Positions 4,578 to 30,326 of a stretch of DNA of 37,863 bases are shown here, one piece after another (position 1 is the stretch's first letter; each line of letters begins with the position of its first letter). The notes under the pieces are model-generated. The model made no database searches. It was not told the DNA's origin and saw only the letters and a program-made list of their open reading frames with translations. A program made the position numbers and the translations under genes. Source of the DNA: a virus (lineage: Duplodnaviria; Heunggongvirae; Uroviricota; Caudoviricetes); the IMG/VR virus record IMGVR_UViG_2684622552_000004, positions 1 to 37,863 of that record, one strand, 5' to 3'.

Positions 4578-4751
4578 TGTCTGTCATTTAATTTGCTCCA
4601 GACGTAGCAATGCGGAACAAGATGCAACTTGCCCGGCATTGCACTAATGTCAGTTATGATCTGTTAATTATGAGATGAGTCTATGCAAAGAGATCTGTTG
4701 AATATTGCGTTCTACATATTTGGTTTTTGCGCGTTCCTGGTGTTTGCGAAA

Positions 4752-8050: not shown

Positions 8051-8059
8051 ATTCCCACC

Positions 8060-9191: not shown

Positions 9192-10036
9192 TGCTCCGCA
9201 ATGATTTTGATGGTTGTGGCAGTAAACGCCGCACCATTTGACTGAATGGTTAACGTGCTGCCATTTGTAGCAAGAAAGCCGTCTTTATCCACGCTGAAGA
9301 ACGTAGCTAACAAGATGTTATCGGTTGTTGTCGCCGAGTTGCGACTGCTTACCAGAGTGTCAGGAACAGAGCCGGAAAATGTTAGCTGCATTGACCTGTT
9401 GGCGGTTCCGCTGGGCCACGTCCCGACAATCGACAGCTTGAAGAACAAGGTTTTGTTCTCGTTGAACACAACCATCTTGTTGTTAACGGTGTCGAAGAAT
9501 GGTGCCAACGTGCCGGATGACGGCGTGAGCGTTTTCAGCAGGCTAACAAGGTTGGTCGGCGCTGTCGGGATGGTTACAGATACGCCAGAGTAAACAACTT
9601 CTGACTTCTTGCGCGTAGTGGCATACTCAAGAGCATCGATGCGCGTTTCATGGTCTGAAAGCGTGTTTTGAATGGCGACAACTTCATCCGTCAGATAATC
9701 AATATCGTTTTCTGCTGTCGTTAATCGTGAATCAAGTCCGACTATCGCCGCTTCTGCGTTAGTAATCCTTGTTTCGTGGTCCTGAATCTTCGCTTCAGCT
9801 GATGCCAGTCGAATTTCGTGATCAACCAGAATCACATCCTGCTCATCGTTCCTGACCTGTGCATCATAAGCGCCTTGTCCGGCCTCGTTGGCCTTGTTCG
9901 CCACATTACCAACATCAGCACCCTGTGCAATAACGTAAAGCAGATACGACTGCGAGAAGATATTGCGTGGAAGGATTGATGTATCGAGCCGCGTCGCCTG
10001 AACAATAACAGGTGTATTGAGATTCGAATCCGCCAT
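9188..10036 (-). CDS. Tail needle protein (P22 gp26-like) with extended C-terminal domain
   Basis: N-terminus [39 protein letters not shown]...[19 protein letters not shown] resembles the P22 gp26 hub-binding tip; heptad coiled coil follows. 282 aa versus 233 aa in P22, with a non-coiled C-terminal domain. Confidence 0.8.
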
Positions 10037-11453
10037 TACTCAATCCTTATCTGAGCACCAGACAGAGTGACAGGTGACTTCGTGATAACGCGCAATTTGA
10101 AGCCAATGTTTTTCCTGATGCGCCCTACTTTCTTCCACAAAACGCGTTTGTCGTAAACGAACGGTTCATTCTGCTCAATCATCTGCTCACGCCCGTAATT
10201 GATGCCGTCAGTTGTAGCAGAGAGGAACAGGCGGTCAGCATACTGAGCAACACCCGTCGATGATTCCACCTCCAGATCAAAGCATCTGGCGTTATCTGCT
10301 TTGAAGAGTGGAGTAAACAGCAGGTGTTCTTGCTGTAGCCCATACTGGCTGCTGATATCGAACTGCAATTTCCCGGTCACGGACTCCAGTTTATCGCCGC
10401 ACGTTATCTGATTGCCTTCGTAAATGAAGTCGATAGCGCGGTACACATCGTCATACAGGCCTGTTTTCAGTACACACCATTGCGGACCATTGGAGCTTGA
10501 AGATGCGTCGTATACGAGGACATGGCGCGGAAGATGGATAATCAGCAACTCATGAGCATCAAACCGCAACGATTCCATCACGCCATCAGCCAGTTCATCA
10601 GCAGTGTAGGAGCGTAGTATTTTCTCAATGCTCGCGCTGGCAATTGGTGATACCTGACCGGAGCCGATGATATACACAGACGCGCACCCGTTGCCGGATT
10701 GCTGATGAACGCATAAGAATCAGCGAATGGCGTTTTGCAGTAGGTTCCGGCAATCCCTTTCTGCACCATCAGTGATGGCTGTGCGACATACAAAGCGGCA
10801 CCAACGGTGGTTGCACCAGTCAGGGAGAAATATTCAATCGTCGATGAACCAAAGCAGACGATGAAGTCTCGCCATGTACCTATGCCGATGATGCCATCAG
10901 GCTGAGATTCTGCGCGATATTGTGCGCTGTATCGGTCAGGGTGTGATTCGTCTTCAAGGTCAGTGATAAACCATGAATCAGTACCGTCTTTTGACCACGC
11001 ATAACGCCCACGTAAGCGCGTAATGTCACGAACTGAACCTAACTCGTACTGTGTGAATCCGCTGTCTGTAGGCCAGTTTGAGACGGTTTTAACCGTACCA
11101 TCATAGCGATACTCGACCAGTTGACCATTAACGCCTACAGCCTGAGATGTTCGACCATGCGCCATTGATACGCGGCCACTTCCGGCGACGTCACCGACTT
11201 CGCTTTCGCCTTTGTAGAGCTTGCCGCCACACACACGATAAACAGCACTCTGCGCCATGTTGTACTCGACGCCGCGAGATACACCGTTCACATCAGAACG
11301 TTTGGCAATGCCCGGGAATGAGCGAAGATATCCGCTGCTGTTGAGGATTTCTTTGGGGGTTGCCAGCATATTCACTGGCAGATAGTCGATATAGTCGGCG
11401 TTTCGGAAGTCTTTGCCGACACCTTTCATAAGCGGAAGTTGCTGAATCGGCAT
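10036..11453 (-). pseudogene. Tail hub protein (P22 gp10-like) interrupted by a frameshift
   Basis: Two overlapping minus-strand ORFs (10578..11453, 291 aa; 10036..10677, 213 aa) together equal the length of one gp10-like protein (about 472 aa). The downstream frame has no real start; the track begins it at a GTG inside continuous coding sequence (...SVYIIGSGQ). Frame switch near 10680-10690. Confidence 0.7.
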
Positions 11454-11954
11454 TTATTCGCTCCCGTCATCGCAATGTTCCTTCCGGTGGAAGTAATTCC
11501 AACCGTTCCACTTCGCCAACTGGTTACCACTACCAACAGGCATGCGGTTTGGATAACCGGACTTACATTTAGCGGCTTTTGCTCTGTCCATTGCAGACAG
11601 TTTGACGAGTCTCTCTTTCCCGTATCTGGCAGTGGTTATAAGTTTTGCAGACGCTTCCAGCGCATAATCCGGAGCAATGCGGCAGGCAAGGTTGAAAATG
11701 ACGGCATTGATAGCGTTATTTGATAAACCGTGTTCATCGCCAGGATCTGGAGCGACATCTGCATCAGCGAAAATGTAGCCAACGTTGATACCTGGTGACG
11801 CATCACCGCCAAGCCACTCAGCCATCATCATTTCAAGGTCGTTGACGCCATCTTCCATGGACTGCGGTTCGACATCGGTTAACGTGGCATTTGATGCCAC
11901 ACCGAGCTTACGTAATGCCGCAAGAACTAAATCACCCTTCGTTGTCAGGTTCAT
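11454..11954 (-). CDS. Head-to-tail adaptor protein (P22 gp4-like)
   Basis: [47 protein letters not shown]...[13 protein letters not shown] resembles P22 gp4; 166 aa from the internal ATG at 11954. The track's upstream extension reads the hexanucleotide repeat as SQSQSQ. Confidence 0.8.
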
Positions 11955-12001
11955 CTGCTGCCGCCTTAGGTTTTCGACCAGGCTTTTTACGCTGTTTTTC
12001 T

Positions 12002-12047
<46 letters not shown>

Positions 12048-12236
12048 CAACATCCTTCAGAAGATCATCAGGATGTGCAAACCAGCCAGCATCCAGATAT
12101 TCCTGAAGCTCTTCGGCTTTCACGATTTCAAAGTCGTATCCAACGCCTTTCTACTTCTTCATGTCTCCATGACGAAAGATCATGTGTGTCATGCTTGTCT
12201 CCAGATAAAAAAGGGAGCCGAAGCTCCCTCTGGTTA

Positions 12237-13532
12237 TCACGCGGTCTGGTTAGGCAGACCAACACCAATTGCCTCTGGTCGTACAGCACATGCTGAATAC
12301 CACACAGCAATACGGCACTTACCAGACAGAGTGTTGATATCACCCTGCGTTGCGAAGATGCCGTTAACACCAATACCAGGAATGCTGAAGGAAGAAGTTT
12401 TCATGCCAGCAAACAGTTCATGAGTTACCGGGATCGGCTGAGACAGCAGACGGATTGAGTCATCAGCCCAGAACACGTTAGCGGTGGTTGTTGCCACGTT
12501 CAGAACATTTACCGGAGTGGTATCAGCAAGAGAGGTGTTTACGTTAGCGTAAGCCTTCTCTTCTTTTGTCAGTGACGCGTCATCCAGTGCAATAGGCTTC
12601 GGCGTGATTTCGATGTGAGTACCATCGATCACACGGGTGATTGAGAAAGTCGCGTCATCAGTCAGCACGTTCTTCGCCATCTGAGACAGGAATTTCACGC
12701 CAGTGAAGCTGATTTTGTCGCCGCGCTTAAATCCGGTGGTGGAGGATACGGTCACCGTTGCAACACGGTTGTCGACGTTCTCTTTGTTACCATCGGTATC
12801 AAGAGTGTATGCCTGCGGCTTAAACTTCTGCGCACCAGAAACAGTTACACCAGTAGCGGTTGACTTGGTAACTGCCGGAAGTTTCGGTGAGCGAAGAATT
12901 TCATCAAATCCAGCAATCTGACGCTGAATAGTACCGTTGCGATACGCTTCTTCAGGAACGCGACCGAAGATGTCACCATCTACCAGGTTGCGGCCTGCTT
13001 TGCGGTAATCGTCAGGGTTCAGGAAGTAACTGATGCCCATATCGCGGTTTAGCTCACGGGAGAACATCAGGCGCTCTGCATCAGACACAAAATCCCAGCC
13101 AGACAGGCCAGTAGATGGACCAATTGCGCGGGTATCGTGAACAACAAGCGAGCCCATTTCAGTTGCCTGTTTGGCAATTGCTGACTCAATGTTATTCGCC
13201 AGTTTTTTGGCGGATGCCTGGATGCGGCGACGGTAAGAACGCTCATCACGCAGGTCATCTGCACGAAGCTCGAAGAAATCGTTATCCGGATCGCCCATGT
13301 TGCATTTCACGGAGAGTTCCAGAATCCCGGTTGCGTTGCCAGTTAAATCCCAGCCAGTCTGGGTTGGCGCTTCCTGCTCAACAGGCATCCACACGGTGTT
13401 GCTTGAACGCTGCATGGATTCTGCCGGAGGGGTGTATTTTGTCACTTTGGACGCCATTGGCGTCAGGTTCTGGACGGTTTCGATGATTTCATCCAGAGCA
13501 TACGTGACCAGTTGACCTTCATTTAATGCCAT
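12237..13532 (-). CDS. Major capsid (coat) protein, P22 gp5-like
   Basis: 431 aa; [10 protein letters not shown]...TPMA...[20 protein letters not shown]...[10 protein letters not shown]...GDKISF.GVKFL.QMAKNVL...ITPKP.ALDD...[13 protein letters not shown] matches the P22 coat protein along its length. Confidence 0.9.
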
Positions 13533-14443
13533 TATCGAATTCCTTTATTCAGTTGCGCCTTGAGCTTGCGGTATGTCTCTACATCCCCTTTGTTTGCTGC
13601 CGCTTCCATCTGCTTTTCAATCGCAGATATATTTGCAGCAACAGCGTGTCCCTGAATGGGTTCATCAGGTAGCGGGGCTTCTGAAACAGGTTTGGCTCGA
13701 GGCTTGAGAGTTAAACGTTCTGATAGTCGAGTGAGTTCAATCAGCGCGGATTGCCCGTCCATCGCCAGCAACTGGCGTGTTTTCTCAGGATTAGCACCAA
13801 GGTGATACATGAGAGCAGCGGATTTCTCCGGGAAGAGGCGCATGATGTCGGCACCGACTGCTGGCGGCACCAGTTGCATGAATGCATCCTCTTTCTCCTG
13901 ATAGTCAGGGATATTGAGCTTTTCCGCTGCGTCGTAGTGCTTACGGGCTGCCTCGACGTATTGCGCTGATTGCTGGGTGAACTCCTGAGTTTTGCGACCC
14001 TGCTCGGCGACAGCCTGGCTTCGTGCGTCCATAGCCTTGATCTGCCATTCACTATTTGCCTGCTGGAAGGCAGCCAGTGCGCGGCTCTGGTCATAGTCGT
14101 ACTTAGCCAGTGCATCTTCGGAAAGATAATCGTTAGGGTCTGGTTGTTTTGGTAACTCAGGGTTCACCCGCAGGTGCTCCGGCAACTCTCCACGCTTAAC
14201 CGCTTCCATCTGCTGCTCAAGCTCACGCTGGCGTTTGCGTTCGATGCGGCGACGGGCAAATTCAGCATTAGTTGCCGGGTCTTGTTTTGGTTTCTCATCG
14301 TCTTTCAGGACAATCTCGAAGCCTTCTTCCTGACCTGCGATGTCGTTGGCATTATCGACAACTAAGCCATCAGCAGATGCCGCTGCATGATTGCCGGGCA
14401 GGGTTAATTCTTCAGAAGCCTGAATGTCGGTGGTTTGGTCCAT
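13532..14443 (-). CDS. Scaffolding protein, P22 gp8-like
   Basis: 303 aa (same as P22 gp8), highly charged helical protein immediately upstream of coat; stop overlaps coat start. Confidence 0.85.
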
Positions 14444-14456
14444 GGTTAACTCTCTC

Positions 14457-16622
14457 TTATTGAGGTGTCTCGGCTACTCCGCCGGAGGGGATTTGAACTT
14501 GACGCATAAGATTCGCGAAATCCATGCGTTGTGAATGAGTCTGGTCTGCATCTTTAAGAAGCAGCTCAGCGTTAGCACGAGCATCTTTGCTGCGCTGTTG
14601 CTGGAATTGACCTACGAGCTTGAGGTACTCACGCAGTTCTGCCTGCTTGTCGAGGTCCATATTGTTGAAGATTTCCGCAATCTTCGCGGCGTTGAGTTGG
14701 TTTTGGGCTTCAACCTTGGCGGCTTCAACCTGAATCTGCGCCTGTTGGTTCTCTGCCTTGAGCAATTCAGCCTGACCTTGCAGAAGGATACCCTGCGCCT
14801 GAATTTGCTCTGCTGATGGCTGCTGCGGCTGCTGTTGAGCCTGCTGTACCATCTCCATCTCTTCAGGTGTTTCTGGCTTCTTCAGCCCCATCATCACCAG
14901 TTGCTTGTTCGCGTACTCTCGCATCATCTCGACGCCTTTACCGTCAAGCAGCGTGAAGTATTGCAGCATCAGCATCTGGAACTCTGGAGTACCTTGCGGA
15001 ACCTTGGTGAGCAACTCCTGAATCTCTGCGCGGTTCTGTTCCTTCATACTCTGGAAGGATGGTCCTACGTCTGTATAGCACTCATAGCGACCGCGAATGT
15101 CGTTGAGTGTGACCACATTGCCGGACTGGTAATCGACAACTTGCGCATAGAGTTGAACGTCTTTCTCGCTTCCGTCTTCAAGAGTCAGCGTTACATGGCG
15201 AGGAACGTCATAAATATCGTTGACCATTGAGGCATAAATCTCGCCATCACGTCGCATTGCGGTAGCCAGGTTATCCTGAAACACGTATGTCTCAAGGTCT
15301 GCCCGCATGTTCAGTTGATTGACGGTATCGAAAGCGACCTGACCATTTGCCGCCTGCGCATCAACGCCAAGACTAGCCACCTCTTTCACTGCGTTGGTGG
15401 CTGCCTCAAGCATGTAAGCGTTGGCTTGCGGCACTTCAGGGTTTTCCATGTAGGAGATTGGACCAATCGGCAGGTCGTTACCGTTTTCATCGGTCCTGTT
15501 CTGCAGATAGTACGGATAGTCATCATTTCCACCGTACATGTATTCGTAGCCTTCGATTTGCTCAGGGAAGAAGGTAGGTTTCTTCTTCGGTGAGCGAGCA
15601 ACAATATCGGCGTTGAATGACATGATCATGTTACGAAGGCGTTGACCGTCTTTCGTCAGCCTTACCACGCCCTCGTAGCACTCCTTGTCACCAGCGAATG
15701 ACCATTCGCCGTACACAGGAACGATTGGGATATGCTCTCCGGCTATCTTCTCGCGGTCTTTCAGTATCTGCGTGCAGGTGATGATCGACTTATACACACG
15801 CCGACGCTTGACCTTACGCTCTGCTACCTTAATGAATCCACGATTAGCCAGGTCGTCGATGACGTCTTTGATATCCTGCTGGTAATAGCTGACCGGCTCA
15901 CCTGTCAGCGGGTCGCGGTAGATGAAGACTTTCTCTTTCTTCTCTTCGACCTCGTAATACTCAGCGACGTAGACGACATCATTCGATACCCACGGAAACA
16001 GCCATGTGTCGTTCGGATTCTGGAAAGATGGCAGAGTGTCAGGATCAATACCGTAATCCTCTGCGAACTCTTTCCAGCCATTGCGTGACAAAGCGTTAAT
16101 CACCGTGCAGTGCTTAGCGTCGCTCTTATCCATCTGCTTGCTGTTGGCGTCCCATATGACGTGTGAGCAGGCTTCATGGATTGGCAGGCGTCGGATTACC
16201 TGATTGTTGCTTGTTGGGTCGTTGTCTTCGTACTGCGTGACCAGACGCCATGCACCAACGCCAGACTCTATCTGCTCACGAACGCCAACGTTAACGGCAA
16301 TCTTTGCCGTGTTATGGCGCATATCAGTACGATACATCCCCATCAACACATCGGCTGCATCAGTATTAGCGCCGTCTTTGGGTCGGAAGAGAACGTCGAT
16401 AGGGTTCCGGCGCATCTCTGCGACCAGTTTCCTGACCACCGGGCGAACAACATCGAATTGTCCGCGATATTGCAGGGTCGTGTAGTTTGATAGCCAGTCA
16501 TCCCATTGCGACACTCGGCTAAAATACAGGTCATTTGTCGCCTCGGTTCTGGCTTCATCGCTCGCCATCCAGTCCGCGTCAAACTTACACAGAATGGAAT
16601 TGAGTCTGTTTTCGTCGGCCAT
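14457..16622 (-). CDS. Portal protein, P22 gp1-like
   Basis: 721 aa; [44 protein letters not shown]...[17 protein letters not shown] and a Q-rich C-terminal barrel-like tail as in P22 portal. Confidence 0.9.
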
Positions 16623-18122
16623 TTAAGTTCTCCGTGCGATGGGCCTGATTGGGGCTGGTATCTTTTTCTCTTTTGGTTTTTTGATGTCGCGCATCATTTT
16701 GGCGAAGCGGCGCATCATGTATGCATAGCGAACGGCTGAGAGAACGTCGTCGTTAAGCTTGACGATTTTCCCGTTTTCATCACGGTGATAGAGGCGGAAC
16801 TCCTCAAAGAATGGCTCACAGGTGTTGAATACTTTGAAGCGACCATCGAGCATCATGTCGCGCAATTCAGTGATGCCAGGCTCCACAGCGTTACCGCCAT
16901 CAGGCCATGTCGCATGCTCCTGCAACATCATAAAACCAGCGTCGGCATACTGCCCTTTGAGCTGCTCACCGCCGCCCTTCTCATGCTGGTTTCCGTCATG
17001 AGGCCATGCGGTTGGCACTTTATGCGCCCATGATTTAACGGCTCCCCATGCCTGAACGGCTGTTTTTTCTTTCGCCTTCCACACGCGTGAAACGTAGATT
17101 GTGTCTGCATCCTTATCCCACCAAAGCTGAATCTGCGCCTGTGGGTGATCCCATCCGAAATCCATCCCGCCAATTACGTAGAAGTGATCAGGACACTCGA
17201 ACGGCTGGCACTTAATCGTCTCTTCCGGTATCTGGAAGATTCGACCGCTACCCATCGTAGGAATACCGCGAGCACGCGCCTCTCTCTCGTGCTCGGGATA
17301 GGATGCGATGATTTGCTCTTTCTGCTCGTCGGTGTAGTGCTCTGCGTCATAGATGGTCATGTTGACCACTTTCTGCGACTTGCTGGGATTCTTCAGAAAC
17401 TTGGTAACAACGTCAGACATCCCCATCAGCGGGGTAAACGTCAGAATTGAGAATTGCCCGTATTTGTTGGTACGGGTAAGACCTTCGCCATAAATGCTGT
17501 ATGGTGGCTCTTCGTCAAACCACACGCCGTGGATTGTGTCACCCTGCCAGCGAGCACGGCCTTGCGAGTATGGCTTGAAGTAGCAGATTGAAATGCCATC
17601 TTCAACGCCATCAGCCGTGTGATGCTTAACCAGAAGGTGATCAACAAGGTTCGGAAAGAAAGGAGACTTCTTCCAGCTAATGATGTCCTCTTTCGGTATT
17701 GAACCGTAGCCCGGCTCATCATTCTCTTCAATACGACCGCACAGGATGCGTTGAGTCGTTTTGGTTACAGTCTCGTTTGTCTCGCCACCAATCCAGAAGA
17801 CAACAGGCTCATAAAAACGCTTACCTTTCCACTCACCGCCATATTTACCATCAGCAGGATAGCCTTTTGTGCCCGGATAACGCCCTGTAAGGTGAAACGC
17901 TACTTCAGCAGCACCAGTAAATGACTTACCAAGCTGGTTACCAGCCATAAAACAGCGCTCTGGATAGTCATGCCCGGCGTCGATGAACTCACGCTGTTTG
18001 CTGTATGGCGTAAATTCATATAGCAGGTGTGTGTTCCGGTAGTTCTCTTCTTCTTCGAGTAGCTCGAGCAATTCGATTTGCTCTTCGTCGCTCAGGTTAT
18101 CAAGAATCGCGTCCAGTTCCAC
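16623..18122 (-). CDS. Terminase large subunit, P22 gp2-like
   Basis: 499 aa (same as P22 gp2), immediately downstream of the small subunit and upstream of portal. Confidence 0.85.
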
Positions 18123-18588
18123 GGTTGAATAGCTCCTTGATACGAGAGCGTCGCTTATCGCGATCTCCCTTATCAGGTGTCACGTCTTCAACTTGCGACT
18201 GCTCTTTGAGGCCCAAATCACGGGCGATGATGTTAGCGTTGAGAAGGTCAGCGGCTGCGCCAGAGAATTTCTGGTCGTAGATGACCTGCTCTGCTCGCGT
18301 AACGACTTCAGATAAATCTTCTCGCAGGCGATATGTGCGCCATGTTTCAAGAGTCACATCAATGAACAGAGTGAGGCCTGTAATGGTCATCGCTCGCATC
18401 TTGGCGATAGGTTCTTGTATCACTTCACCCTGATACGAGAACGCCTTCATCTCCCATAGCGGGTTAGCTTCCACCCACTCGAAGTATTCACAACAAGCAG
18501 CCCACAGCGCCTCAGGCGATTCGAATTTAGGGTTTCGCCCATGACTACTGCGGGCCTCCCAAAATCGGTTGCCCTTTGGTGCTGCCAT
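18100..18588 (-). CDS. Terminase small subunit, P22 gp3-like
   Basis: 162 aa (same as P22 gp3), overlaps the large-subunit start; the pac site is expected inside this gene in P22-like phages. Confidence 0.8.
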
Positions 18589-18667
18589 ATTGATTATTTC
18601 CCTTCTGCTTGCTTATCCCATTCATCGCGGAATTTGGATGGGTTGTCGAAACCTTGAGTTGCCATGT

Positions 18668-18910
18668 TTATGTTCCGGTAGTGAACAGGTCTAACGCTTC
18701 CTTCGATTTACGCACCGCTTCGATTGTGCGGGTCGTGATATCTGAATTAGCGCCGCCTGACTGGAAGTGAATTTTGAATAGCTCAAGCTTCAGTTCGTCA
18801 GTGCCAATGAATTGAAATGCTTCTTCTGCGGCTGCGTTCTGGTTCATGACCAGTTTGTAAATCTCTAACTGGAATTTCTGTTCTTCAGTCATGGGAATAA
18901 TCTCTGCCAT
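18668..18910 (-). CDS. Hypothetical protein (position of P22 orf80 upstream of gene 3)
   Basis: 80-aa ORF directly upstream of the terminase small subunit; no recognisable motif. Confidence 0.5.
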   Translation of the reverse strand: MAEIIPMTEEQKFQLEIYKLVMNQNAAAEEAFQFIGTDELKLELFKIHFQSGGANSDITTRTIEAVRKSKEALDLFTTGT

Positions 18911-19357
18911 TGTTGGCTCCGTTTATCCGTTAAAAGGGATATCAGTTAAGTTATCCCGTGTAGGGTATAAGCCATTGTCGAGACCACTCATTGAATGGCC
19001 TCTGCAATAACCGATGTCTTTCCATCAGTCCGCCACCACAAAGAATCTTTTTTGCCATAAGGCTGGAGGTTCATCTTTCAGTGGCTGCCAGTGTTATTTC
19101 CCCACTTACTGGCTTGGGTTGTTTCGTGGTACTGCCGTAACTGGTTGCCCAGAATAAATTCCGGTTTCATTATCAAGCCCACCCGTAGATAGGCTTTATA
19201 ATGAACTGGCTCTTATCTCAACGCAGCCCCTTACCGCGCGCCATATGCTCAACTTCAAGCATCAGCAATGAGATGTTTAATCTGGATTCACTCCAGAAGT
19301 GATCATCACCCTGTCTACAGAGCCAGATGTGAAGGATGATGAGTAAAATTATCGCTA

Positions 19358-19825
19358 TCATCGAAGGCATTGCGTCCTGATGTATTCCTGAAGCGTTCTC
19401 AGTGCTGTTTGGTCGCGGATAATTCCGTCCCGGACACCGAGAACGTTTCGTCCAGCAACTGGAGAGAGTTCGACGGTGGCATCATTGCCCATGCCGGAGG
19501 CGCCGGATGTTTCGGCTGAGGATGGCACAGGGCATTTTCCTTTGACGAGCACCCTGCCACCATTATCAAGCTTGCGCCGAAGAGTATCATTTTCAGCTTT
19601 CGCATCAGCTAACTCCTTCGTGTATTTAGCATCAAGTGCATCAGCAGTACGCTGGCGCTGCTGCATGTCAGTAATGGTGGCGGTCGCCTGCTTCAGTTCA
19701 CTGGCCTTGTTATCGCGCTGCTCTTTGTAGGCGATGGCGTTATCACGGTAATGATTAACAGCCCATGACAGGCAGACGATGATGCAGATAACCAGAGCGG
19801 AGATAATCGCGGTTACTCTGCTCAT
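19358..19825 (-). CDS. Rz: Spanin inner-membrane subunit Rz
   Basis: [36 protein letters not shown]...[16 protein letters not shown] closely matches lambda Rz; N-terminal TM helix plus coiled coil. Confidence 0.9.
19399..19605 (-). CDS. Rz1: Spanin outer-membrane lipoprotein Rz1, embedded in Rz in +1 frame
   Basis: Lipobox LIMVAGC followed by proline-rich [14 protein letters not shown], as in lambda Rz1; wholly contained within Rz. Confidence 0.75.
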
Positions 19826-20298
19826 ACCTCAATCTCTCTGACCGTTCCGCCTGCTTCTTTGAATTTTGCAATCAGGTTGTCAGCCTTATGCTCGAACTGA
19901 CCATAACCAGCGCCCGGAAGTGAAGCCCAAACATTGCTGCAACGGTCAATTGCCTGACGAATATCACCGCGATCAATCATCGGTAAAGCGCCACGCTCCT
20001 TAATCTGCTGCAATGCCACAGCGTCCTGGCTTTTCGGAGAGAAGTCTTTCAGGCCAAGCTGCTTACGATAGGCATCCCACCAACGGGAAAGAAGCTGGTA
20101 ACGTCCGGCGGCTGTTGATTTGAGTTTTGGGTTTAGCGTGACAAGTTTGCGAGGGTGATCGGAGTAATCAGTGAATAGCTCTCCGCCTACAATGACGTCA
20201 TAACCATGATTTCTGGTTTTCTGCCGTCCGTTATCTGTTCCCTCTGACCACGCCAGCATATCGAGGAACGCCTTACGTTGATTATTGATTTCCACCAT
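19822..20298 (-). CDS. R: Endolysin, lambda R-type lytic transglycosylase
   Basis: 158 aa, [50 protein letters not shown]... essentially lambda R. Confidence 0.95.
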
Positions 20299-25014: not shown

Positions 25015-25090
25015 GATTTACCCTCCCCCAAATAAAAAGGCCTGCGATTACCAGCAGGCCTGTTATTAGCTCAGTGATGTAGATGGTCAT
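25007..25090 (-). CDS. 27-aa hydrophobic peptide, translationally coupled to helicase gene
   Basis: MTIYITELITGLLVIAGLFIWGRVNRG; ATG overlaps the helicase stop (TGATG). SD AAGGAGGA is formed by the last helicase codons (KKKGGF). Below the ORF-track size cutoff. Confidence 0.35.
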   Translation of the reverse strand: MTIYITELITGLLVIAGLFIWGRVNRG

Positions 25091-26526
25091 CAGAATCCTC
25101 CTTTCTTCTTGGACTGCGGTTCCTCGCGTTCACGGCGGCGCATTTCAGCAGACTGTTGGTCTGTGTCATAAATAGCGCCATTTGCCTGAATGCAATACAC
25201 CGTGCCGGTATTGCCATGACGATTGAGACGAAGGATTAGTTCGGTTTCACCAGGTGGAACACTGTCATCAAAAGCACCTTCACGATGGATCCCCACCCAA
25301 TAATCGCAATCCTGCTCAATCTGCCCTGTATCTCGTGAGTCACTTGGTAGTGGGCGTTTATTGGTTCGGCTTTCCAGTGCGCGGTTAAGCTGCGTCAGAA
25401 GCACAACAACGCAATCAAGCTCTTTGGCAAGGTTCTTCAGTCCTTTGGTGATCATGCCGTAAGCAAGGTCGTTGCGATCGGCCTTCTCAGCGGTCATTAG
25501 TGTCAGGTAATCGACCAGAATCATGCCAACACATCCTTTTTCTCGCTTGATTCGACGGCTTTCGCTGACGATTTGAGCCAGAGATAATCCCGGCGTGTCG
25601 TCGATGTAAAGCATGTCGATTTCACTCAAGCGATTGGCTGTTTCGATCGCCCTGTTGAAGTCACCATCGTAATCACCCTGATAGCCGTCATCAGCGTCAT
25701 TTGTCGCCGGAAGGTAAAAAATATTCGGGTTAACACCTGACTTCTGTCCTACCAGTTTTTCCAGTATCTGGTCACCGGGCATTTCAAGGCTGAACATCAG
25801 AGCGGGCTTTTTCTCATGCACTGCGCAGTTGATTGCCATCTGGCTGTATAGCGTCGTTTTCCCCATCTTAGGGCGAGCGCCAATGACAAACAGAGAGCCT
25901 TTCACCAGACCTTTCGGTGACAGCATCCTGTCCAGCGATGGGATCCCGGTGCTCATTCCTCGTTGTTCGCCTGACGGGTCAAATCGCTTCTCAAGGTCGC
26001 TAACCCAGTCTTCCATGACCTCACCAAATGAGCGAAGGCCGCGACGCGATCCGGTTTTTGCATGGTCTGTCAGTTGCGTGAAAATCGACTGAATAGCTTC
26101 GTACTTCTGCGTTGCAGTCATTCCGTTGCGGGAATAGAGCAATTCCGTCGCTTCAGTCATGCGGTTGATGGCGTAGCGTTCCATTGCGGTTTCACGAACC
26201 TGCATTGCATAGGCAACGATGTTTGCTGCGCTTGGCGTGTTCTTTGCGATCTCAGCGATATAAGCAAAACCGCCAATAGACGCCGTTAACGATTTACGCT
26301 CCAGTTCATCGAAAAGCGTCAGGCCATCTACTGGCTTTTGCTCCCGGTGCATTCTGGTTATCTCTTCGAAAAGGATTTTGTGTGGTCGGCTGTAAAATGA
26401 ATCAGGCTTCAGCATCGCCAGAACTTTCTGGACGCGCTCACTGCTGTCATCATCCAGAAGCAATCCACCAATCACTGCCTGCTCTGCCTCGATGCTATTG
26501 GGCGGCGCATAAAAATTATCGGTCAT
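25090..26526 (-). CDS. Replicative DNA helicase, DnaB family (P22 gene 12-like)
   Basis: Walker A GARPKMGKTT, DnaB-like ...FSLEMPGDQILEKL... and C-terminal RecA-like motifs; start at ATG 26526 with SD GAGGGTG. Confidence 0.9.
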   Translation of the reverse strand: MTDNFYAPPNSIEAEQAVIGGLLLDDDSSERVQKVLAMLKPDSFYSRPHKILFEEITRMHREQKPVDGLTLFDELERKSLTASIGGFAYIAEIAKNTPSAANIVAYAMQVRETAMERYAINRMTEATELLYSRNGMTATQKYEAIQSIFTQLTDHAKTGSRRGLRSFGEVMEDWVSDLEKRFDPSGEQRGMSTGIPSLDRMLSPKGLVKGSLFVIGARPKMGKTTLYSQMAINCAVHEKKPALMFSLEMPGDQILEKLVGQKSGVNPNIFYLPATNDADDGYQGDYDGDFNRAIETANRLSEIDMLYIDDTPGLSLAQIVSESRRIKREKGCVGMILVDYLTLMTAEKADRNDLAYGMITKGLKNLAKELDCVVVLLTQLNRALESRTNKRPLPSDSRDTGQIEQDCDYWVGIHREGAFDDSVPPGETELILRLNRHGNTGTVYCIQANGAIYDTDQQSAEMRRREREEPQSKKKGGF

Positions 26527-27406
26527 CGTGTTCACCCTCACGAACTTTCAGGTAGGTATTGTCGTTAAGCAGGAAATCAAATCCCTTTTTGTGCCAGACG
26601 GTTCCACGTTGATGGTTTGGACGCTCTTCGAACATCCATCGGCAATTTTCGCCTACGTAGCTCAAATAATTTCTCCAGTCCTGCATCGTGAACCCATGCC
26701 CGTCAAGCTGGCGGGTTATCACTCCGGCTTTGCGCCAGAACGTTCGGATCTGGTTTTTACGCTTGTCATTCAGTGCGCGGATTTTTGGCGCTTCAGGAAG
26801 GATTTCGTGGTAAGCATCGACAACATCCTGACAGCTAACGGAAGGTTTTTTCTTGTCAGACTTTTTGTCTGCTGCGGTACTCTCTAATACGTCAGTATTA
26901 GAGATATTATTTATATTATTGTTTATGGACAACCGTTGGACAACCGTTGGACAATCTCCGCTGAGAGCCGCGCCATTACTGGTGTTTGCGTTGGACAACC
27001 GTTGGACACCCGTTGGACAATTTTTTGTCTGAAAATCGTCATATTTAACGATTGTAAACAGGCTAAATTTCTTCCCCATCGAGCAAATATTAAGCATCCC
27101 TTTCGACTCAAAAGTCCGCAATAAGCTCCGAACTTTGTTGTCGGGGATGAATGTTTCTCTGACCAGCGACGGGCGTCCAGTTATCATCTGACCGCGATCA
27201 ACAGTTATCGGACCGATATCCGTATTGACGACAGTAGATTCGTGATTAGCCTTGAGGATTAAGTGAAGCCAAAGATGTACTGCCTGAGAGTCCTTATAGA
27301 GCCTGCTGTCCATAAACTGGCGGTGTATAGAGACATACCCCATACTGGATGCCTCCTGATGTTGTACAGGGTTATGCCTGTAATCAGCTAACTTAACGAC
27401 GCCCAT
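26516..27406 (-). CDS. Replication initiation protein (lambda O / P22 gene 18-like)
   Basis: Position between cII and helicase; the gene contains direct-repeat iterons plus an AT-rich tract, as lambda O contains ori. Start ambiguous (27406 or 27343, both with good SD). Confidence 0.75.
   Translation of the reverse strand: MGVVKLADYRHNPVQHQEASSMGYVSIHRQFMDSRLYKDSQAVHLWLHLILKANHESTVVNTDIGPITVDRGQMITGRPSLVRETFIPDNKVRSLLRTFESKGMLNICSMGKKFSLFTIVKYDDFQTKNCPTGVQRLSNANTSNGAALSGDCPTVVQRLSINNNINNISNTDVLESTAADKKSDKKKPSVSCQDVVDAYHEILPEAPKIRALNDKRKNQIRTFWRKAGVITRQLDGHGFTMQDWRNYLSYVGENCRWMFEERPNHQRGTVWHKKGFDFLLNDNTYLKVREGEHDDR
26922..27075. repeat. Putative replication origin: 11-bp iterons CCGTTGGACAA plus AT-rich region
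   Basis: Copies at 26933-26943 and 26944-26954 (perfect, tandem), 26988-26998 and 26999-27009 (one mismatch each), 27010-27020 (perfect), partial copy at 26926-26932; followed by TTTTTTGTCTGAAAATCGTCATATTTAACGATTGTAAACA. Confidence 0.7.
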
Positions 27407-27554
27407 GTTTCACTCCTGCTTTGGCTAGTCTGTAAACACCAACAAGGCGCTCTGCGAACGCCCTGTTATTTGCTGCGGCTACCACTAATCCCTCAGGTGA
27501 ATCAGGGTGTCGAATCTCTTCTTTTTCCTGGTATTTCTTACGACGTTTTGTCAT
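27393..27554 (-). CDS. Candidate 53-aa basic protein in the cII-O intergenic region
   Basis: MTKRRKKYQEKEEIRHPDSPEGLVVAAANNRAFAERLVGVYRLAKAGVKHGRR; SD AGGAG 5 nt upstream of ATG. Below the ORF-track cutoff; could be fortuitous. Confidence 0.3.
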   Translation of the reverse strand: MTKRRKKYQEKEEIRHPDSPEGLVVAAANNRAFAERLVGVYRLAKAGVKHGRR

Positions 27555-27588
27555 AATTACTCCTGTGGATTGATCCAGTCTTTCTACA

Positions 27589-27867
27589 TCAGGCCTCGAA
27601 GAATTCGCCGTTCTTCGGGGCTTTTTCTTTTGTCAGCATTCTGGCTACTTGCTTAGCCAGTTCCGCCAACTCCTCGTCTTCAACACCCCATTCCAGCACA
27701 GCCAGAAGCATGGCCATCTTTGGGATAAAGCTGTCTTTCCATCGCGAAATTTGCGATTCATTGATCCCTAATGCATCAGCAACCTTTCGCTGACCACGTA
27801 CAGCAATTCGATTTAGGATGTTGCTTGTAATTGCATTCGCTTTCTTGCGAGTACTTGTAAGTTGCAT
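27589..27867 (-). CDS. cII: Transcriptional activator cII
   Basis: ...ADALGINESQISRWKDSFIPKMAMLLAVLEWGVEDEE... matches lambda cII (...SQISRWKRDWIPKFSMLLAVLEWGV...); start at internal ATG 27867. Confidence 0.85.
   Translation of the reverse strand: MQLTSTRKKANAITSNILNRIAVRGQRKVADALGINESQISRWKDSFIPKMAMLLAVLEWGVEDEELAELAKQVARMLTKEKAPKNGEFFEA
27597..27631 (+). terminator. Intrinsic terminator antisense to the cII 3' end (oop-like RNA terminator)
   Basis: Plus-strand CGAAGAA-TTCGCCG-TTCTTCG hairpin followed by GGGCTTTTTCTTTT, inside the cII coding region reading antisense, the arrangement of lambda oop. Confidence 0.45.
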
Positions 27868-27926
27868 ATGTAAGTATTTCCTTAACAAATAAGAAGTTAT
27901 GCGCACCAACTGATGCGCGTTGTATT

Positions 27927-27969
27927 CCCGCATTTCGGCGGGAATGAGGACCATGACTGTTAAAGAGCG
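27927..27969 (-). promoter_or_regulatory. nutR (boxA + boxB)
   Basis: Minus strand boxA CGCTCTTTAACA (27958-27969), then 15 nt, then boxB hairpin CCCGC-CGAAAT-GCGGG (27927-27942), between cro and cII. Confidence 0.6.
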
Positions 27970-27975
27970 GTGTTA

Positions 27976-28170
27976 CTATTTGTTTTTCTTGTTGCTTGGG
28001 AAAGGACGAACTTCCTCTCCAATCACACTGCCATCAGGCTTTACCGTAACCATAATGTTACGGCCTGCCAGAATGGCCTTGCTGATAGCGCACTGGATTA
28101 CACCAAAGTCACTGGCTGCTTTAGCCTGTCCATGGATTTTGGCGTAATCGGCAAGTGTCATTCGAATCAT
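27976..28170 (-). CDS. cro: Cro repressor
   Basis: [64 protein letters not shown] resembles lambda Cro (...[59 protein letters not shown]); start ATG 28170 with SD GGAGAG. Confidence 0.85.
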
Positions 28171-28199
28171 ATGCACTCTCCGTTATTAACCATGAACAA

Positions 28200-28270
28200 A
28201 GAATACTACAGGTATTCAAAGCAATCAATACTCAGGGTATTTTTAGTTTAAGTACCTTAGCTATTAGAAT
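28200..28270. promoter_or_regulatory. Right operator region (three sites) with divergent pR / pRM
   Basis: Sites AATACTACAGGTATT (28202-28216), AATACTCAGGGTATT (28227-28241) and weaker AGTACCTTAGCTATT (28251-28265), spaced 24-25 bp. Minus-strand pR: -35 TTGATT, 17 bp, -10 TATTCT. Plus-strand pRM -10 TAGAAT just before a near-leaderless cI ATG. Confidence 0.55.
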
Positions 28271-28276
28271 TAAGCT

Positions 28277-28993
28277 ATGGAAAATAAAAAATCACTGACG
28301 ACAGAACAGCTCGAAGACGCTAAGCGGCTTAAGGCTTTGTATGAGTCAAAAAAGAAAGAATTGGGAATAACCCAATACTCAATCGCTGATGAACTGGGTA
28401 TCACCCAAGGAGCGGTAGGGCATTATCTTAATGGCAGAAACGCGCTAAACGTTGAGGTTGCATCTGGTTTTGCACGACTGTTGCAAGTCTCAATTGCTGA
28501 TTTTAGCCAGTCAATTGCTGCCAAGGTTGCAGAACAGGCAGAAAGCCTTAAGAGCGATGCCAACGTAAGGTATGCAGGGGAATACAGAGCAGGAAAGAGG
28601 TATCCGGTGTTAAGCAGTATCCAGGCTGGCTCGTGGTGTGAAGCATGCGAACCATACACCATTAAAGACATAGATGTTTGGCTTGAGTCTGACGCGCATA
28701 TTCAAGGTAATGCGTTTTGGCTTAAAGTGGAAGGTGATTCAATGACGGCACCGGTTGGGTTAAGCATTCCAGAGGGAACATTCGTTCTTTTCGATACCGG
28801 AAGGGAGGCGATCAACGGCAGCTTGGTCATAGCAAAACTTTCTGACTCTAACGAAGCAACATTCAAGAAGCTGATAATCGACGGCGGAAATAAATACCTC
28901 AAGGGACTTAATCCTGCATGGCCTCTCGTGCCAATCAATGGAAACTGCAAGATTATAGGCGTTGCAATTGAGACAAAACTAAGGCTGGTTTGA
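28277..28993 (+). CDS. cI: cI-type repressor (HTH plus S24 LexA-like autopeptidase domain)
   Basis: N-terminal HTH (QYSIADELGITQGAVGHYLNG), C-terminal S24 domain with GDSM serine motif and conserved Lys (FKKL); divergent from cro across the operator region. Confidence 0.9.
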   Translation: MENKKSLTTEQLEDAKRLKALYESKKKELGITQYSIADELGITQGAVGHYLNGRNALNVEVASGFARLLQVSIADFSQSIAAKVAEQAESLKSDANVRYAGEYRAGKRYPVLSSIQAGSWCEACEPYTIKDIDVWLESDAHIQGNAFWLKVEGDSMTAPVGLSIPEGTFVLFDTGREAINGSLVIAKLSDSNEATFKKLIIDGGNKYLKGLNPAWPLVPINGNCKIIGVAIETKLRLV

Positions 28994-29010
28994 TCACGCA
29001 AGGGGCGCTT

Positions 29011-29379
29011 ATGGTTGGAACCGCTATAGCAAGCTTTTTTGGGATGTTGGCAATCTCGACAATTTACGGCTTAGCGCATGCTTTTATTGCGAAATCTCTA
29101 TCAGAAAAAATAAGCCAGGCTTGGGCGCATAGATCAGCTCGTTTCATGATTCTTGTGATCATAGCAATACAAGGGATATCTGCATTTATCCTCTATGGAT
29201 CAAGCTTATACCTATTGTATCAAGGCGCGACATTTACGCCTTACACCAGTGATTACGGAACTCTATACGATGGTAGTGAAGACATCACTGTGGCTTGGAT
29301 CGTCTTTGGTTTATCTATGGCCGTGTCTGTTGTAGCAGACATCATTAAGGTAATTCTCGTCTTAACCTTCGCTGACTAA
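29011..29379 (+). CDS. Small membrane protein co-transcribed with cI (rex position)
   Basis: About 122 aa from ATG 29011 (SD AAGGGG), three predicted TM helices, AT-rich. Begins 18 nt after the cI stop and precedes OL/pL. Confidence 0.6.
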   Translation: MVGTAIASFFGMLAISTIYGLAHAFIAKSLSEKISQAWAHRSARFMILVIIAIQGISAFILYGSSLYLLYQGATFTPYTSDYGTLYDGSEDITVAWIVFGLSMAVSVVADIIKVILVLTFAD

Positions 29380-29466
29380 CCTATAATCCCGGCAGCAATA
29401 GCTATCGGGATCCACTTCACATATCCCGCATAAAAAGCACTGAACAAGTAGACACCGAAAAAAATA

Positions 29467-29553
29467 AATATCCTTTGTATTCATTTGCTTATCATTATTT
29501 CATCAAAAATAAATACCTTGGGTATTTACACAATAAAATACCTACAGTATTCT
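29467..29553 (+). promoter_or_regulatory. Left operator sites and putative pL
   Basis: Sites AATATCCTTTGTATT (29467-29481), AATACCTTGGGTATT (29512-29526), AATACCTACAGTATT (29537-29551). pL candidate -35 TTTACA (29525-29530), 17 bp, -10 TATTCT (29548-29553) overlapping the last two sites. Confidence 0.5.
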
Positions 29554-29598
29554 TTAGCCATCAGCAGGACGCTGGTAGCCAAACGGAACAGATTGGCA

Positions 29599-29639
29599 GG
29601 CTCTTTAACATTGATGGGATTGTCCCGCCGAAATGCGGG
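29599..29639 (+). promoter_or_regulatory. nutL (boxA + boxB)
   Basis: boxA GGCTCTTTAACA (29599-29610), then 13 nt, then boxB hairpin CCCGC-CGAAAT-GCGGG (29624-29639). The boxB is identical to the nutR copy. Confidence 0.6.
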
Positions 29640-29747
29640 AACCAAAGAGTAGTTGGCTTTGGGGTGATGTGAAGTGCAGCTGCACGACGGCAACCGGAAG
29701 ATAAGCACCCGGCGCGTCACCGCCAAAGTCAATCATCGGAGGTCAAC

Positions 29748-30047
29748 ATGACAGTAGTCATTACATATCTGGCTGACGATAACACCAGAAATCGCCGCAG
29801 AGCACGCAGACAGGCTCAACGTGAACAGGCAATGCAAGAACAGCGACTGGCGCGAAAGATTGCGCTAAAGCTCTCTGGTTGCGTCAGAGCAGATAAAGCA
29901 GCATCACTCGGAAGCCTTCGCTGCAAGAAGGCAGAAGAAGTCGAGCGTAAACAGAACCGTATTTACTACAGCAAGCCACGTAGTGAAATGGGTGTGACTT
30001 GTGTTGGTCGCCAGAAAATGAAATTAGGCAGCAAACCACTTATTTGA
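29748..30047 (+). CDS. N: Antitermination protein N
   Basis: Arg-rich N-terminus NTRNRRRARRQAQREQ and C-terminus RIYYSKPRSEMGVTCVGRQKMKLGSKPLI resembling lambda N (RTWYSKPGERGITCSGRQKIKGKSIPLI); SD GGAGG. Confidence 0.85.
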   Translation: MTVVITYLADDNTRNRRRARRQAQREQAMQEQRLARKIALKLSGCVRADKAASLGSLRCKKAEEVERKQNRIYYSKPRSEMGVTCVGRQKMKLGSKPLI

Positions 30048-30055
30048 GGTGAGAT

Positions 30056-30142
30056 ATGGAAGAAGAATTTGAAGAGTTCGAAGAGCATCCGCAGGATGTG
30101 ATGGAACAATACCAGGACTATCCTTATGACTACGACTATTGA
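30056..30142 (+). CDS. Candidate 28-aa acidic peptide
   Basis: MEEEFEEFEEHPQDVMEQYQDYPYDYDY with SD GAGGTGA; overlaps the ral start. Below the ORF-track cutoff; speculative. Confidence 0.2.
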   Translation: MEEEFEEFEEHPQDVMEQYQDYPYDYDY

Positions 30143-30326
30143 TAAGAATCAATGGTGTGGACAATTCAAGCGATGCAATGGATGCAAGCTGCAATCGGAA
30201 TGCATGGTTAAGCCTGAAGAAATGTTTCCTGTAATGGAAGATGGGAAATATGTCGATAAATGGGCAATACGCACGACGGCAATGATTGCCAGAGAACTTG
30301 GTAAACAGAACAACAAGGCTGCCTGA
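30126..30326 (+). CDS. ral: Restriction alleviation protein Ral
   Basis: 66 aa, MTTTIDKNQWCGQFKRCNGCKLQSEC...; size, Cys pattern and position right after N match lambda Ral (sequence recalled, not searched). Confidence 0.65.
   Translation: MTTTIDKNQWCGQFKRCNGCKLQSECMVKPEEMFPVMEDGKYVDKWAIRTTAMIARELGKQNNKAA

What the first reader, a model, noticed from the sequence alone, without database searches (positions are those of the whole stretch)
28990..29460. Uncharacterised three-helix membrane protein in the cI operon (rex/exclusion position)
A 122-aa AT-rich membrane protein starts 18 nt after the cI stop and ends before OL/pL. That is exactly where lambda carries rexAB, so it should be expressed from pRM in the lysogen. 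Lysogen-expressed cargo at this slot is typically superinfection exclusion or abortive-infection function. It is a single small protein, unlike the two-gene Rex system, and I recognise no motif.
Basis: partly seen in the sequence, partly recalled or inferred. Interest (0 to 1): 0.7.

Follow-up and report, generated by a model that had tools for sequence, protein, structure and literature searches.

The report
Orphan membrane gene hkaS behind cI
A small three-helix inner-membrane protein gene (hkaS, first annotated in phage HK620 in 2001) sits in the prophage repressor operon where lambda carries rexAB. It is a real, conserved gene with no detectable relatives outside its own small family, it may be a phage-exclusion factor, and its function has never been tested.

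Summary
An ORF at 29011..29379 (+) encodes 122 aa. It starts 17 nt after the cI stop, has a conserved Shine-Dalgarno, and is followed by a stem-loop and then OL3/OL2/OL1/pL. It is hkaS of phage HK620, labelled 'unknown' or 'hypothetical' in every record seen, and it matches PHROG 6534 (unknown function).

The gene is real. dN/dS is 0.14-0.2, it is intact in 80/80 viral contigs, and the AlphaFold2 model has pLDDT 92. The protein has three TM helices with predicted N-out/C-in topology.

It is an orphan. A profile search of 1.84 billion representatives found only its own family. There is no Pfam, NCBIfam, PADLOC or PDB match, and no informative fold match. Profile comparisons show no relation to RexB, 434 Hex, P22 SieA or a class I holin.

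It always follows one cI family. No recombination breakpoint falls between 28134 and 29642, so it is locked inside the immunity cassette, which recombines with different flanking early-region modules and phage types.

Expression from pRM/pRE in lysogens is inferred from this layout. An exclusion function is plausible by analogy with other repressor-operon cargo, but nothing here tests it. My best guess, at about 0.4, is a block at the inner membrane against superinfecting phages. This is a new sequence family in a known kind of slot, of moderate interest.

The parts
28202..28265 (.). OR operators. OR1 is 28202-28216 and OR2 is 28227-28241, both perfect AATAC-N5-GTATT. OR3 is 28251-28265 with 2 mismatches. 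They lie between cro (- strand) and cI. A pRM is presumed here, with a -10-like TAGAAT just upstream of the cI ATG (my reading of the sequence).
   Evidence: HK620 annotation.
28277..28993 (+). cI repressor, 238 aa, HTH_3 plus Peptidase_S24. First gene of the operon.
   Evidence: 52% identical to 434 cI.
29000..29005 (+). Shine-Dalgarno AAGGGG for hkaS, 5 nt upstream of the ATG.
   Evidence: A purine-rich SD is conserved in all nine loci.
29011..29379 (+). hkaS, 122 aa. Three-TM inner-membrane protein with predicted N-out/C-in topology.
   Evidence: (PHROG 6534, E 2.4e-79).
29386..29411 (+). Stem-loop AUCCCGG.AGC....GCU.UCGGGAU, 7-9 nt after the stop. Probably the 3' end or terminator of the cI-hkaS transcript (tIMM-like). 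It has no canonical U-tract.
   Evidence: A stable hairpin sits at the same position in all four divergent lineages, with unrelated sequences in L002 and L006.
29467..29481 (.). OL3 candidate, AATATCCTTTGTATT.
   Evidence: An operator-like site lies 45 bp upstream of OL2 in all four lineages.
29512..29553 (+). OL2 (29512-29526), OL1 (29537-29551) and pL (-35 TTTACA at 29525-29530, -10 TATTCT at 29548-29553).
29748..30047 (+). N-like antiterminator, the first pL gene. Given as context; it lies outside the conserved cassette.
   Evidence: phrog_271; mosaic breakpoints.

Best explanation
Shown: hkaS is a genuine, selectively maintained gene. It is the second and last cistron of the cI operon and lies inside the immunity cassette OR-cI-hkaS-OL-pL. 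It encodes a 122-aa polytopic inner-membrane protein.

Predicted topology is periplasmic N-terminus, TM1 (2-27), a basic cytoplasmic amphipathic loop (28-44), TM2 (45-70), an acidic periplasmic beta-hairpin loop (71-94), TM3 (95-119) and a 3-residue cytoplasmic end.

Inferred: it is transcribed with cI from pRM in lysogens and from pRE during establishment, and not from the lytic promoters. It therefore sits in the lysogen's inner membrane.

Most likely, it protects the lysogen from heteroimmune superinfecting phages at the membrane step. I commit to a block of genome entry across the inner membrane, that is superinfection exclusion in the manner of P22 SieA, T4 Imm or HK97 gp15. It would act alone or through a host inner-membrane factor.

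In this reading the fast-evolving periplasmic loop would set specificity. The conserved inner-leaflet cluster (H40, R41, R44, D110, K113 and the invariant C-terminal ILVLTFAD) would be the constant working part.
For: Operon anatomy:
- 17-nt spacer, conserved SD and ATG.
- The consensus scan found no promoter-like or terminator-like site between cI and hkaS.
- A hairpin follows the stop in four lineages, then the operators and pL.

Real and maintained:
- dN/dS 0.14-0.2.
- 80/80 intact copies.
- Present with cI in 146/146 matching places in complete E. coli genomes.

Membrane protein:
- Three hydrophobic helices.
- Loop 1 has 4 K/R; loop 2 has 4 D/E and no K/R.
- AF2 pLDDT 92.

No partner gene: only cI and cro co-occur with it, and the flanks are mosaic.

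Conservation pattern: distal periplasmic loop 38% identity against 71% for the cytoplasmic loop and 91% for the C-end. TM1 carries a G3-x3-[G/A]7-x3-G11 small-residue face.

Precedent from the literature:
- The cI-N interval is a mosaic hotspot that holds rexAB and bstA (PMC8585504).
- 434 hex, in the same slot, excludes P22 (PMC3564112).
- SieA is a single inner-membrane protein that blocks DNA delivery (PMC10883804).
- From my own knowledge, single envelope-located proteins encoded next to repressors (P1 Sim, K139 Glo, TP-J34 Ltp, Tuc2009 Sie2009) have turned out to be entry blockers.
Against: - There is no experimental or homology evidence for any function.
- There is no expression data; co-transcription is inferred from layout only.
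- The stem-loop lacks a U-tract.
- The gene travels with the immunity region in phages annotated with different morphologies: HK620 (Lederbergvirus), mEpX2 (Hendrixvirinae) and Stx2c-converting phages. Known entry blockers such as sieA and HK97 gp15 sit beside the virion or ejection genes they match.
- The most conserved surface faces the cytoplasm. That fits a cytoplasmic trigger or partner as well as it fits an entry block.
- Low conservation of the periplasmic loop may simply reflect weak constraint.
Confidence: 0.4

Rival explanations
1. Abortive infection by a stand-alone membrane effector. HkaS oligomerises into a channel that collapses membrane potential when triggered by an infecting phage. 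This would resemble RexB in effect, but without RexA.
For: - Same slot as rexAB (PMC8585504).
- Glycine-zipper-like face in TM1, invariant polar or charged residues within the TMs (Q54, D110, K113), and a strongly conserved cytoplasmic face that could receive a trigger.
- Independence from virion type fits a general defence.
Against: - No sensor gene accompanies it.
- No similarity to RexB: BLASTP E 3.7 and hhalign probability 0.7%.
- Three TM helices, not four.
- No PADLOC match.
- Oligomerisation was not modelled.
Confidence: 0.2
2. Not a defence gene. HkaS modulates lysogeny or host physiology from the membrane. It might stabilise the lysogen, as reported for 434 Hex and for the protease-inhibiting role of RexB. 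Or it might modulate a host inner-membrane protein such as FtsH/HflKC or a transporter.
For: - It is strictly co-inherited with one cI family through saturating synonymous divergence.
- Hex, in the same slot of a phage whose cI is 52% identical overall, is reported to lower spontaneous induction (PMC3564112).
- The conserved face is cytoplasmic.
Against: - Linkage is explained by position alone. Any gene between cI and OL is locked in the cassette, and no breakpoint falls between 28134 and 29642 in 80 loci.
- It has no similarity to Hex.
- The cytoplasmic parts are only a 17-residue loop and a 3-residue tail.
- Related cI genes do without any gene in this slot: mEp235, ST64T and Bas106.
Confidence: 0.2
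3. A holin- or antiholin-like protein that alters lysis timing of the host phage or of a superinfecting phage.
For: Its size and predicted three-TM, N-out/C-in topology match class I holins such as lambda S105 (holin topology from my own knowledge).
Against: - hhalign probability is 0.2% against a lambdoid class I holin.
- It has no charged C-terminal cytoplasmic tail; the C-end is FAD.
- It lies in the repressor operon, not the late lysis cassette.
Confidence: 0.05
4. A spurious or decaying ORF with no function.
For: - No known domain.
- Very narrow distribution.
- A few variants have frameshifted N-termini: P0006, P0007 and P0009.
Against: - pN is far below pS.
- Length of 122 aa is identical down to 52% identity.
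- Start codon and SD are conserved.
- 80/80 copies are intact.
- The fold is predicted confidently.
Confidence: 0.03

Closest known systems
HkaS of coliphage HK620 (AF335538, protein AAK28867; PHROG 6534)
   Same: It is the same gene at 99% amino-acid identity, in the same place between cI and OL.
   Different: Nothing differs. Every record labels it 'unknown' or 'hypothetical protein', and I found no functional study.
Lambda RexB (with RexA)
   Same: It occupies the same slot downstream of cI and upstream of OL, in the repressor operon, and is a polytopic inner-membrane protein.
   Different: - No sequence relation.
- Three TM helices rather than four.
- 122 aa rather than 144 aa.
- No RexA-like partner.
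- No internal promoter was detected.
Phage 434 Hex
   Same: It is the single gene directly after a related cI (52% identical overall) and is reported as co-transcribed from pRM. It is reported to exclude P22 and to lower induction (PMC3564112).
   Different: It is unrelated in sequence. The re-annotated 134-aa Hex has a signal-peptide-like N-terminus and no further hydrophobic helices, so it is not a polytopic membrane protein.
P22 SieA, T4 Imm and HK97 gp15 (single inner-membrane proteins that block phage DNA entry)
   Same: They are small, prophage- or phage-encoded inner-membrane proteins without enzymatic domains that act alone (PMC10883804).
   Different: - No homology: SieA hhalign probability 0.3%, and no PHROG exclusion family matched.
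- sieA lies next to the ejection-protein genes with its own promoter, not in the repressor operon.
- An entry block by HkaS is untested.
BstA (BTP1) and Stk (933W)
   Same: They are lysogen-expressed cargo immediately downstream of cI (PMC8585504; PMC3564112 references).
   Different: They are large cytoplasmic abortive-infection proteins and are unrelated to HkaS.

Membership tests
HkaS family (PHROG 6534) | Full-length sequence match to the family profile | tested here: met
   phrog_6534 matched at E 2.4e-79 over residues 1-122 of 122. 99% identical to HK620 hkaS.
HkaS family (PHROG 6534) | Position directly after an HK620-type cI and before OL | tested here: met
Lambda RexB | Sequence homology to RexB | tested here: not met
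   BLASTP E 3.7. hhalign probability 0.7%. No Pfam, PHROG or PADLOC hit.
Lambda RexB | Adjacent rexA sensor gene | tested here: not met
   hkaS is the only ORF between cI and OL here and in all homologous loci.
Lambda RexB | Four transmembrane helices | tested here: not met
   Three hydrophobic helices.
Lambda RexB | Depolarises the membrane on infection | not testable with these tools
   Needs infection assays with membrane-potential dyes.
Phage 434 Hex | Sequence homology to Hex | tested here: not met
   BLASTP E 4.0.
Phage 434 Hex | Reduces RecA-dependent repressor cleavage and spontaneous induction | not testable with these tools
   Needs induction assays comparing a hkaS-deleted lysogen with wild type.
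P22 SieA-type entry blockers | Sequence homology to SieA | tested here: not met
   hhalign probability 0.3%. No exclusion PHROG matched.
P22 SieA-type entry blockers | Inner-membrane location | tested here: inconclusive
   Predicted from hydropathy, charge distribution and the AF2 model. Not shown experimentally.
P22 SieA-type entry blockers | Blocks DNA delivery after adsorption | not testable with these tools
   Needs DNA-entry and potassium-efflux assays.
Class I holins | Three TM helices with N-out/C-in topology | tested here: met
   Prediction only.
Class I holins | Charged cytoplasmic C-terminal tail, and a gene in the late lysis cassette | tested here: not met
   The C-end is FAD, 3 residues. 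The gene is in the cI operon. hhalign probability is 0.2%.
Catalogued anti-phage defence systems (PADLOC-DB 2.0) | Match to any defence-protein model | tested here: not met
   No family at E <= 1.

The most novel reading that the evidence does not exclude
HkaS is the founding member of a new kind of defence or immunity-cassette protein with no detectable sequence or structural relatives. One possibility is a RexA-independent, single-protein membrane defence, either an entry block or a depolarising channel. The more unusual possibility is a membrane-embedded modulator of the cI switch that links envelope state to prophage stability. That would give a functional reason for its unbroken association with one repressor family.
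Probability: 0.12. Interest if true: 0.7.

Novelty: new member of a known kind. Interest (0 to 1): 0.35.

Why it matters
The cI-to-OL interval of lambdoid phages is a classic site for lysogen-expressed cargo. Its known occupants (rexAB, hex, stk, bstA) each turned out to be phage-exclusion systems.

HkaS occupies this slot in about 2.7% of complete E. coli genomes (146 of 5426). Carriers include Stx2c-converting phages and the model phage HK620. It has stayed 'hypothetical' since 2001.

It is a small, stand-alone, confidently folded orphan membrane protein. That makes it a cheap candidate for a new exclusion or abortive-infection mechanism. It also matters for interpreting the host range of P22-like and lambda-like phages on natural E. 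coli isolates. If it has no phage phenotype, it would be a counter-example to the working rule that cargo in this slot is defence.

Tried and rejected
**Homology and fold searches that found nothing**
- Pfam gave only sub-threshold noise: Cation_ATPase_C at 17.6 bits against a cut-off of 27.3.
- NCBIfam and PADLOC gave nothing.
- The PDB profile search gave 0 hits.
- Foldseek against BFVD gave nothing below E 0.37.
- The afdb50 library was unavailable.
- The exhaustive profile search of 1.84 billion representatives found only the family itself.
- The scan of species-representative genomes found none.

**Direct comparisons rejected**
- RexB, 434 Hex, a lambdoid holin S and P22 SieA.

**Sequence features rejected**
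- The 129-aa TTG start is ruled out by upstream in-frame stops in homologues.
- A 40-aa ORF on the minus strand (29362..29484) and a 23-aa hydrophobic reading frame in the 3' region are spurious. The interval between the stop and OL3 is not conserved across lineages.
- Two operator-like sites inside hkaS (29166 and 29207, 2 mismatches each) are absent from L002 and L006, so they are probably chance.
- Rfam found no RNA family in 28000-30200.

**Literature**
- Searches for hkaS, HK620, mEpX2, HK630/HK140 and repressor-linked membrane exclusion proteins found no functional study.

**Not attempted**
- Homo-oligomer modelling. The structure tool takes single chains from the window only.

Full report

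Yes. The + strand carries cI at 28277..28993 (238 aa, HTH_3 plus Peptidase_S24). Seventeen nt after its stop, an ATG at 29011 opens a 122-codon frame that ends at 29379. The SD AAGGGG lies at 29000-29005.

The mechanical ORF list gives a 129-aa version starting from TTG at 28990. Comparison rejects it. All nine loci examined keep the ATG and a purine-rich SD. Five of them (L002-L004 and L007-L009) have an in-frame stop just upstream.

Kyte-Doolittle windows show three hydrophobic segments with peaks of 1.67, 2.29 and 2.28. 'AT-rich' is a mild overstatement: 42.0% GC against 46.6% for the window.

**2. Is it a gene?**

Homologues down to 52% identity are all 122 aa, with invariant motifs:
- KISQAW.H..ARF
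- S.YLLY...TF..Y
- D..K.ILVLT.A.

In the closest informative pair, pN is 0.088 and pS is 0.441 (dN/dS 0.14). Another pair gives 0.20. In the most distant pairs synonymous sites are saturated, while pN stays at 0.27-0.33.

In 80 IMG/VR loci the gene is intact every time. There are 36 DNA alleles and 24 protein variants, and the replacements are mostly conservative. AlphaFold2 with only a 7-sequence alignment gives pLDDT 92.1 and pTM 0.79. The model has helices at 2-29, 31-38, 41-73 and 89-121, and a beta-hairpin at 78-86.

**3. What is it called?**

The region is 98.7-99.3% identical to phages mEpX2, HK620, HK630, HK140, HF4s and some Stx2c-converting phages. In HK620 (AF335538) the gene is hkaS, product 'unknown'. 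Every other record says 'hypothetical protein'.

It matches PHROG 6534 (unknown function) end to end at E 2.4e-79.

The window itself is a P22-like phage by its virion genes, which resemble IME10 and HK620. It shares only the immunity and replication block with the Hendrixvirinae phage mEpX2.

**4. How far does the family reach?**

The word-index search found 12 clusters, all in Enterobacteriaceae: E. coli, Hafnia and Salmonella. The exhaustive profile search of 1.84 billion representatives found only the family itself. No species-representative genome carries it.

It occurs in 16 of 50,697 phage records and in 146 of 5,426 complete E. coli genomes.

All of the following were negative:
- Pfam, NCBIfam and PADLOC
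- PDB sequence search
- BFVD Foldseek

**5. Anatomy of the locus**

The consensus scan of 28100-29800 reports no promoter-like site inside cI or in the 17-nt spacer. It finds no terminator-like site between cI and hkaS on the + strand. It does find pL at 29525-29553.

The motif AATAC-N5-GTATT occurs perfectly only at four places: 28202 and 28227 (OR1, OR2), and 29512 and 29537 (OL2, OL1). A 1-mismatch site lies at 29467 and a 2-mismatch site at 28251 (OR3). An operator-like site sits 45 bp upstream of OL2 in all four divergent lineages. I therefore take 29467 as OL3. The HK620 GenBank coordinates would put OL3 about 20 bp further right.

Between the hkaS stop and OL3 the sequence is not conserved. 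Yet each lineage has a stable stem-loop 9-22 nt after the stop. In the window it lies at 29386-29411. The L002 and L006 hairpins have unrelated sequences, with z-scores from -2.2 to -4.4. This looks like a structurally conserved 3' end or terminator, although none has a U-tract.

The layout implies transcription with cI from pRM and pRE only. That is an inference, not a measurement.

**6. Linkage**

In every context recovered, hkaS directly follows a cI of the same family. The cI proteins are 81-95% identical. The genes beyond cro and beyond nutL/N differ.

I compared 80 viral loci with the window. Similarity breaks at these positions:
- Left side: 27376, 27545-27549, 27865 or 28134
- Right side: 29642, 29663-29674, 29733, 29839, 29939, 30016 or 30058-30068

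No break falls between 28134 and 29642. OR-cI-hkaS-OL-pL therefore behaves as one indivisible cassette that is shuffled among phage backbones. The linkage needs no functional explanation, because a gene between cI and OL is trapped.

The gene has nevertheless been retained through saturating synonymous divergence. HkaS evolves about four times faster than cI at the protein level.

Phages with related cI genes hold unrelated cargo, or nothing, in this slot:

| Phage | Slot content |
|---|---|
| Lambda | rexAB |
| 434 | hex |
| ENT39118 | 120-aa non-hydrophobic ORF |
| P13374 | DNA methyltransferase |
| Bas106, ST64T, mEp235 | No annotated gene |

This agrees with the published view of the cI-N interval as a mosaic hotspot (PMC8585504).

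**7. Protein features that bear on mechanism**

Loop 1 (residues 28-44) has 4 K/R. Loop 2 (71-94) has 4 D/E and no K/R. This predicts N-out/C-in topology.

Conservation among five sequences from the four lineages is uneven:

| Segment | Mean pairwise identity |
|---|---|
| C-terminal ten residues | 91% |
| Cytoplasmic loop | 71% |
| TM helices | 56-61% |
| Distal periplasmic loop (79-94) | 38% (1 of 16 invariant) |

TM1 carries a G3-x3-[G/A]7-x3-G11 small-residue face. TM2 has invariant Q54. TM3 has invariant D110 and K113 near the inner leaflet, close to H40, R41 and R44.

The constant part therefore faces the cytoplasm and the variable part faces the periplasm.

**8. Comparison with known systems**

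- **RexB:** same slot, but no sequence relation, three helices rather than four, and no RexA.
- **434 Hex:** same slot behind a cI that is 52% identical overall, but unrelated. The re-annotated Hex has a signal-peptide-like N-terminus.
- **P22 SieA:** a single inner-membrane entry blocker (PMC10883804), but unrelated. It is encoded beside the ejection genes with its own promoter.
- **Class I holins:** same predicted topology, but no relation, no charged tail, and the wrong operon.

**9. Mechanism**

Shown: this is a conserved gene for a small polytopic membrane protein, locked in the immunity cassette.

Inferred: it is expressed in lysogens and located in the inner membrane.

Proposed, at about 0.4 confidence: exclusion of heteroimmune phages at the inner membrane, most likely by blocking genome entry. 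This rests on precedent. Single envelope proteins encoded with repressors have generally proved to be entry blockers. It also rests on the lack of any partner gene and on the fast-evolving periplasmic loop.

Rivals:
- A self-contained depolarising abortive-infection effector (0.2)
- A modulator of lysogeny or host physiology (0.2)
- A holin-like role (0.05)
- No function (0.03)

Two points weigh against an entry block. The gene is independent of virion type, and its most conserved surface is cytoplasmic.

**10. Novelty and verdict**

The ORF itself has been known since 2001. Its family is uncharacterised and has no detectable relatives. I file it as a new, unstudied member of a known kind: lysogen-expressed cargo of the repressor operon.

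Interest is moderate at 0.35. It is easy to test and is present in pathogenic and commensal E. coli prophages. Nothing in the sequence would surprise a specialist.

Noticed in passing
window 29467-29481 (compare 29488-29504): The best third left-operator candidate is AATATCCTTTGTATT at 29467-29481. An operator-like site lies at this position, 45 bp upstream of OL2, in all four divergent lineages. The HK620 GenBank annotation, transferred to window coordinates, puts OL3 at about 29488-29504, where there is no operator-like sequence. It also puts tIMM over the site proposed here.
   Followed up: partly
L011 2430-2834 (phage 434, OL657226): The re-annotated 434 Hex ORF (134 aa) starts MIRIAALLSILLTTSANSEC. 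This looks like a signal peptide, which implies an exported protein. That is hard to reconcile with the published model in which Hex protects repressor from RecA in the cytoplasm (PMC3564112). The GenBank note itself says the paper inferred the wrong start codon.
   Followed up: partly
window 27376-28134 and 29642-30068: Recombination breakpoints between this immunity cassette and its various phage backbones cluster at a few positions. On the left they are 27376, 27545-27549, 27865 and 28134. On the right they are 29642, 29663-29674, 29733, 29839, 29939, 30016 and 30058-30068, which fall within nutL and the N gene. This suggests preferred junctions.
   Followed up: partly
window 29362-29484 (- strand): A 40-aa ORF starts inside the OL3 candidate and overlaps the hkaS 3' end. 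A 23-aa hydrophobic reading frame (MFSAFYAGYVKWIPIAIAAGIIG, from a TTG start) lies in another frame. The underlying DNA is not conserved in L002 or L006, so both are probably spurious.
   Followed up: yes
window 29166-29180 and 29207-29221: Two operator-like sequences (2 mismatches each) lie inside hkaS, 41 bp apart. They are absent from the Salmonella (L002) and L006 homologues. One is present in L008. They are probably chance.
   Followed up: yes
proteins P0006, P0007, P0009 (homologues of 29011-29379): Rare variants (1-2 member sequences each) have N-termini that read as a frameshifted version of the same DNA, for example GAYGWNRYSKLFGDVGNLNNLRLSACF. This suggests occasional disruption of TM1 in some prophages or assemblies.
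   Followed up: no
window 28265-28279: A -10-like TAGAAT lies a few bases upstream of the cI ATG, and no SD is visible. The pRM transcript may therefore be leaderless for cI, as in lambda, whereas hkaS has a strong SD. HkaS might then be translated at least as efficiently as cI. This is my reading of the sequence and was not tested.
   Followed up: no
window 1-20000 and 25087-29839: The window is a mosaic. Its virion genes are about 95% identical to P22-like coliphages such as IME10, Louie and Bas106. Its immunity and replication block is 98.5% identical to the Hendrixvirinae phage mEpX2.
   Followed up: partly
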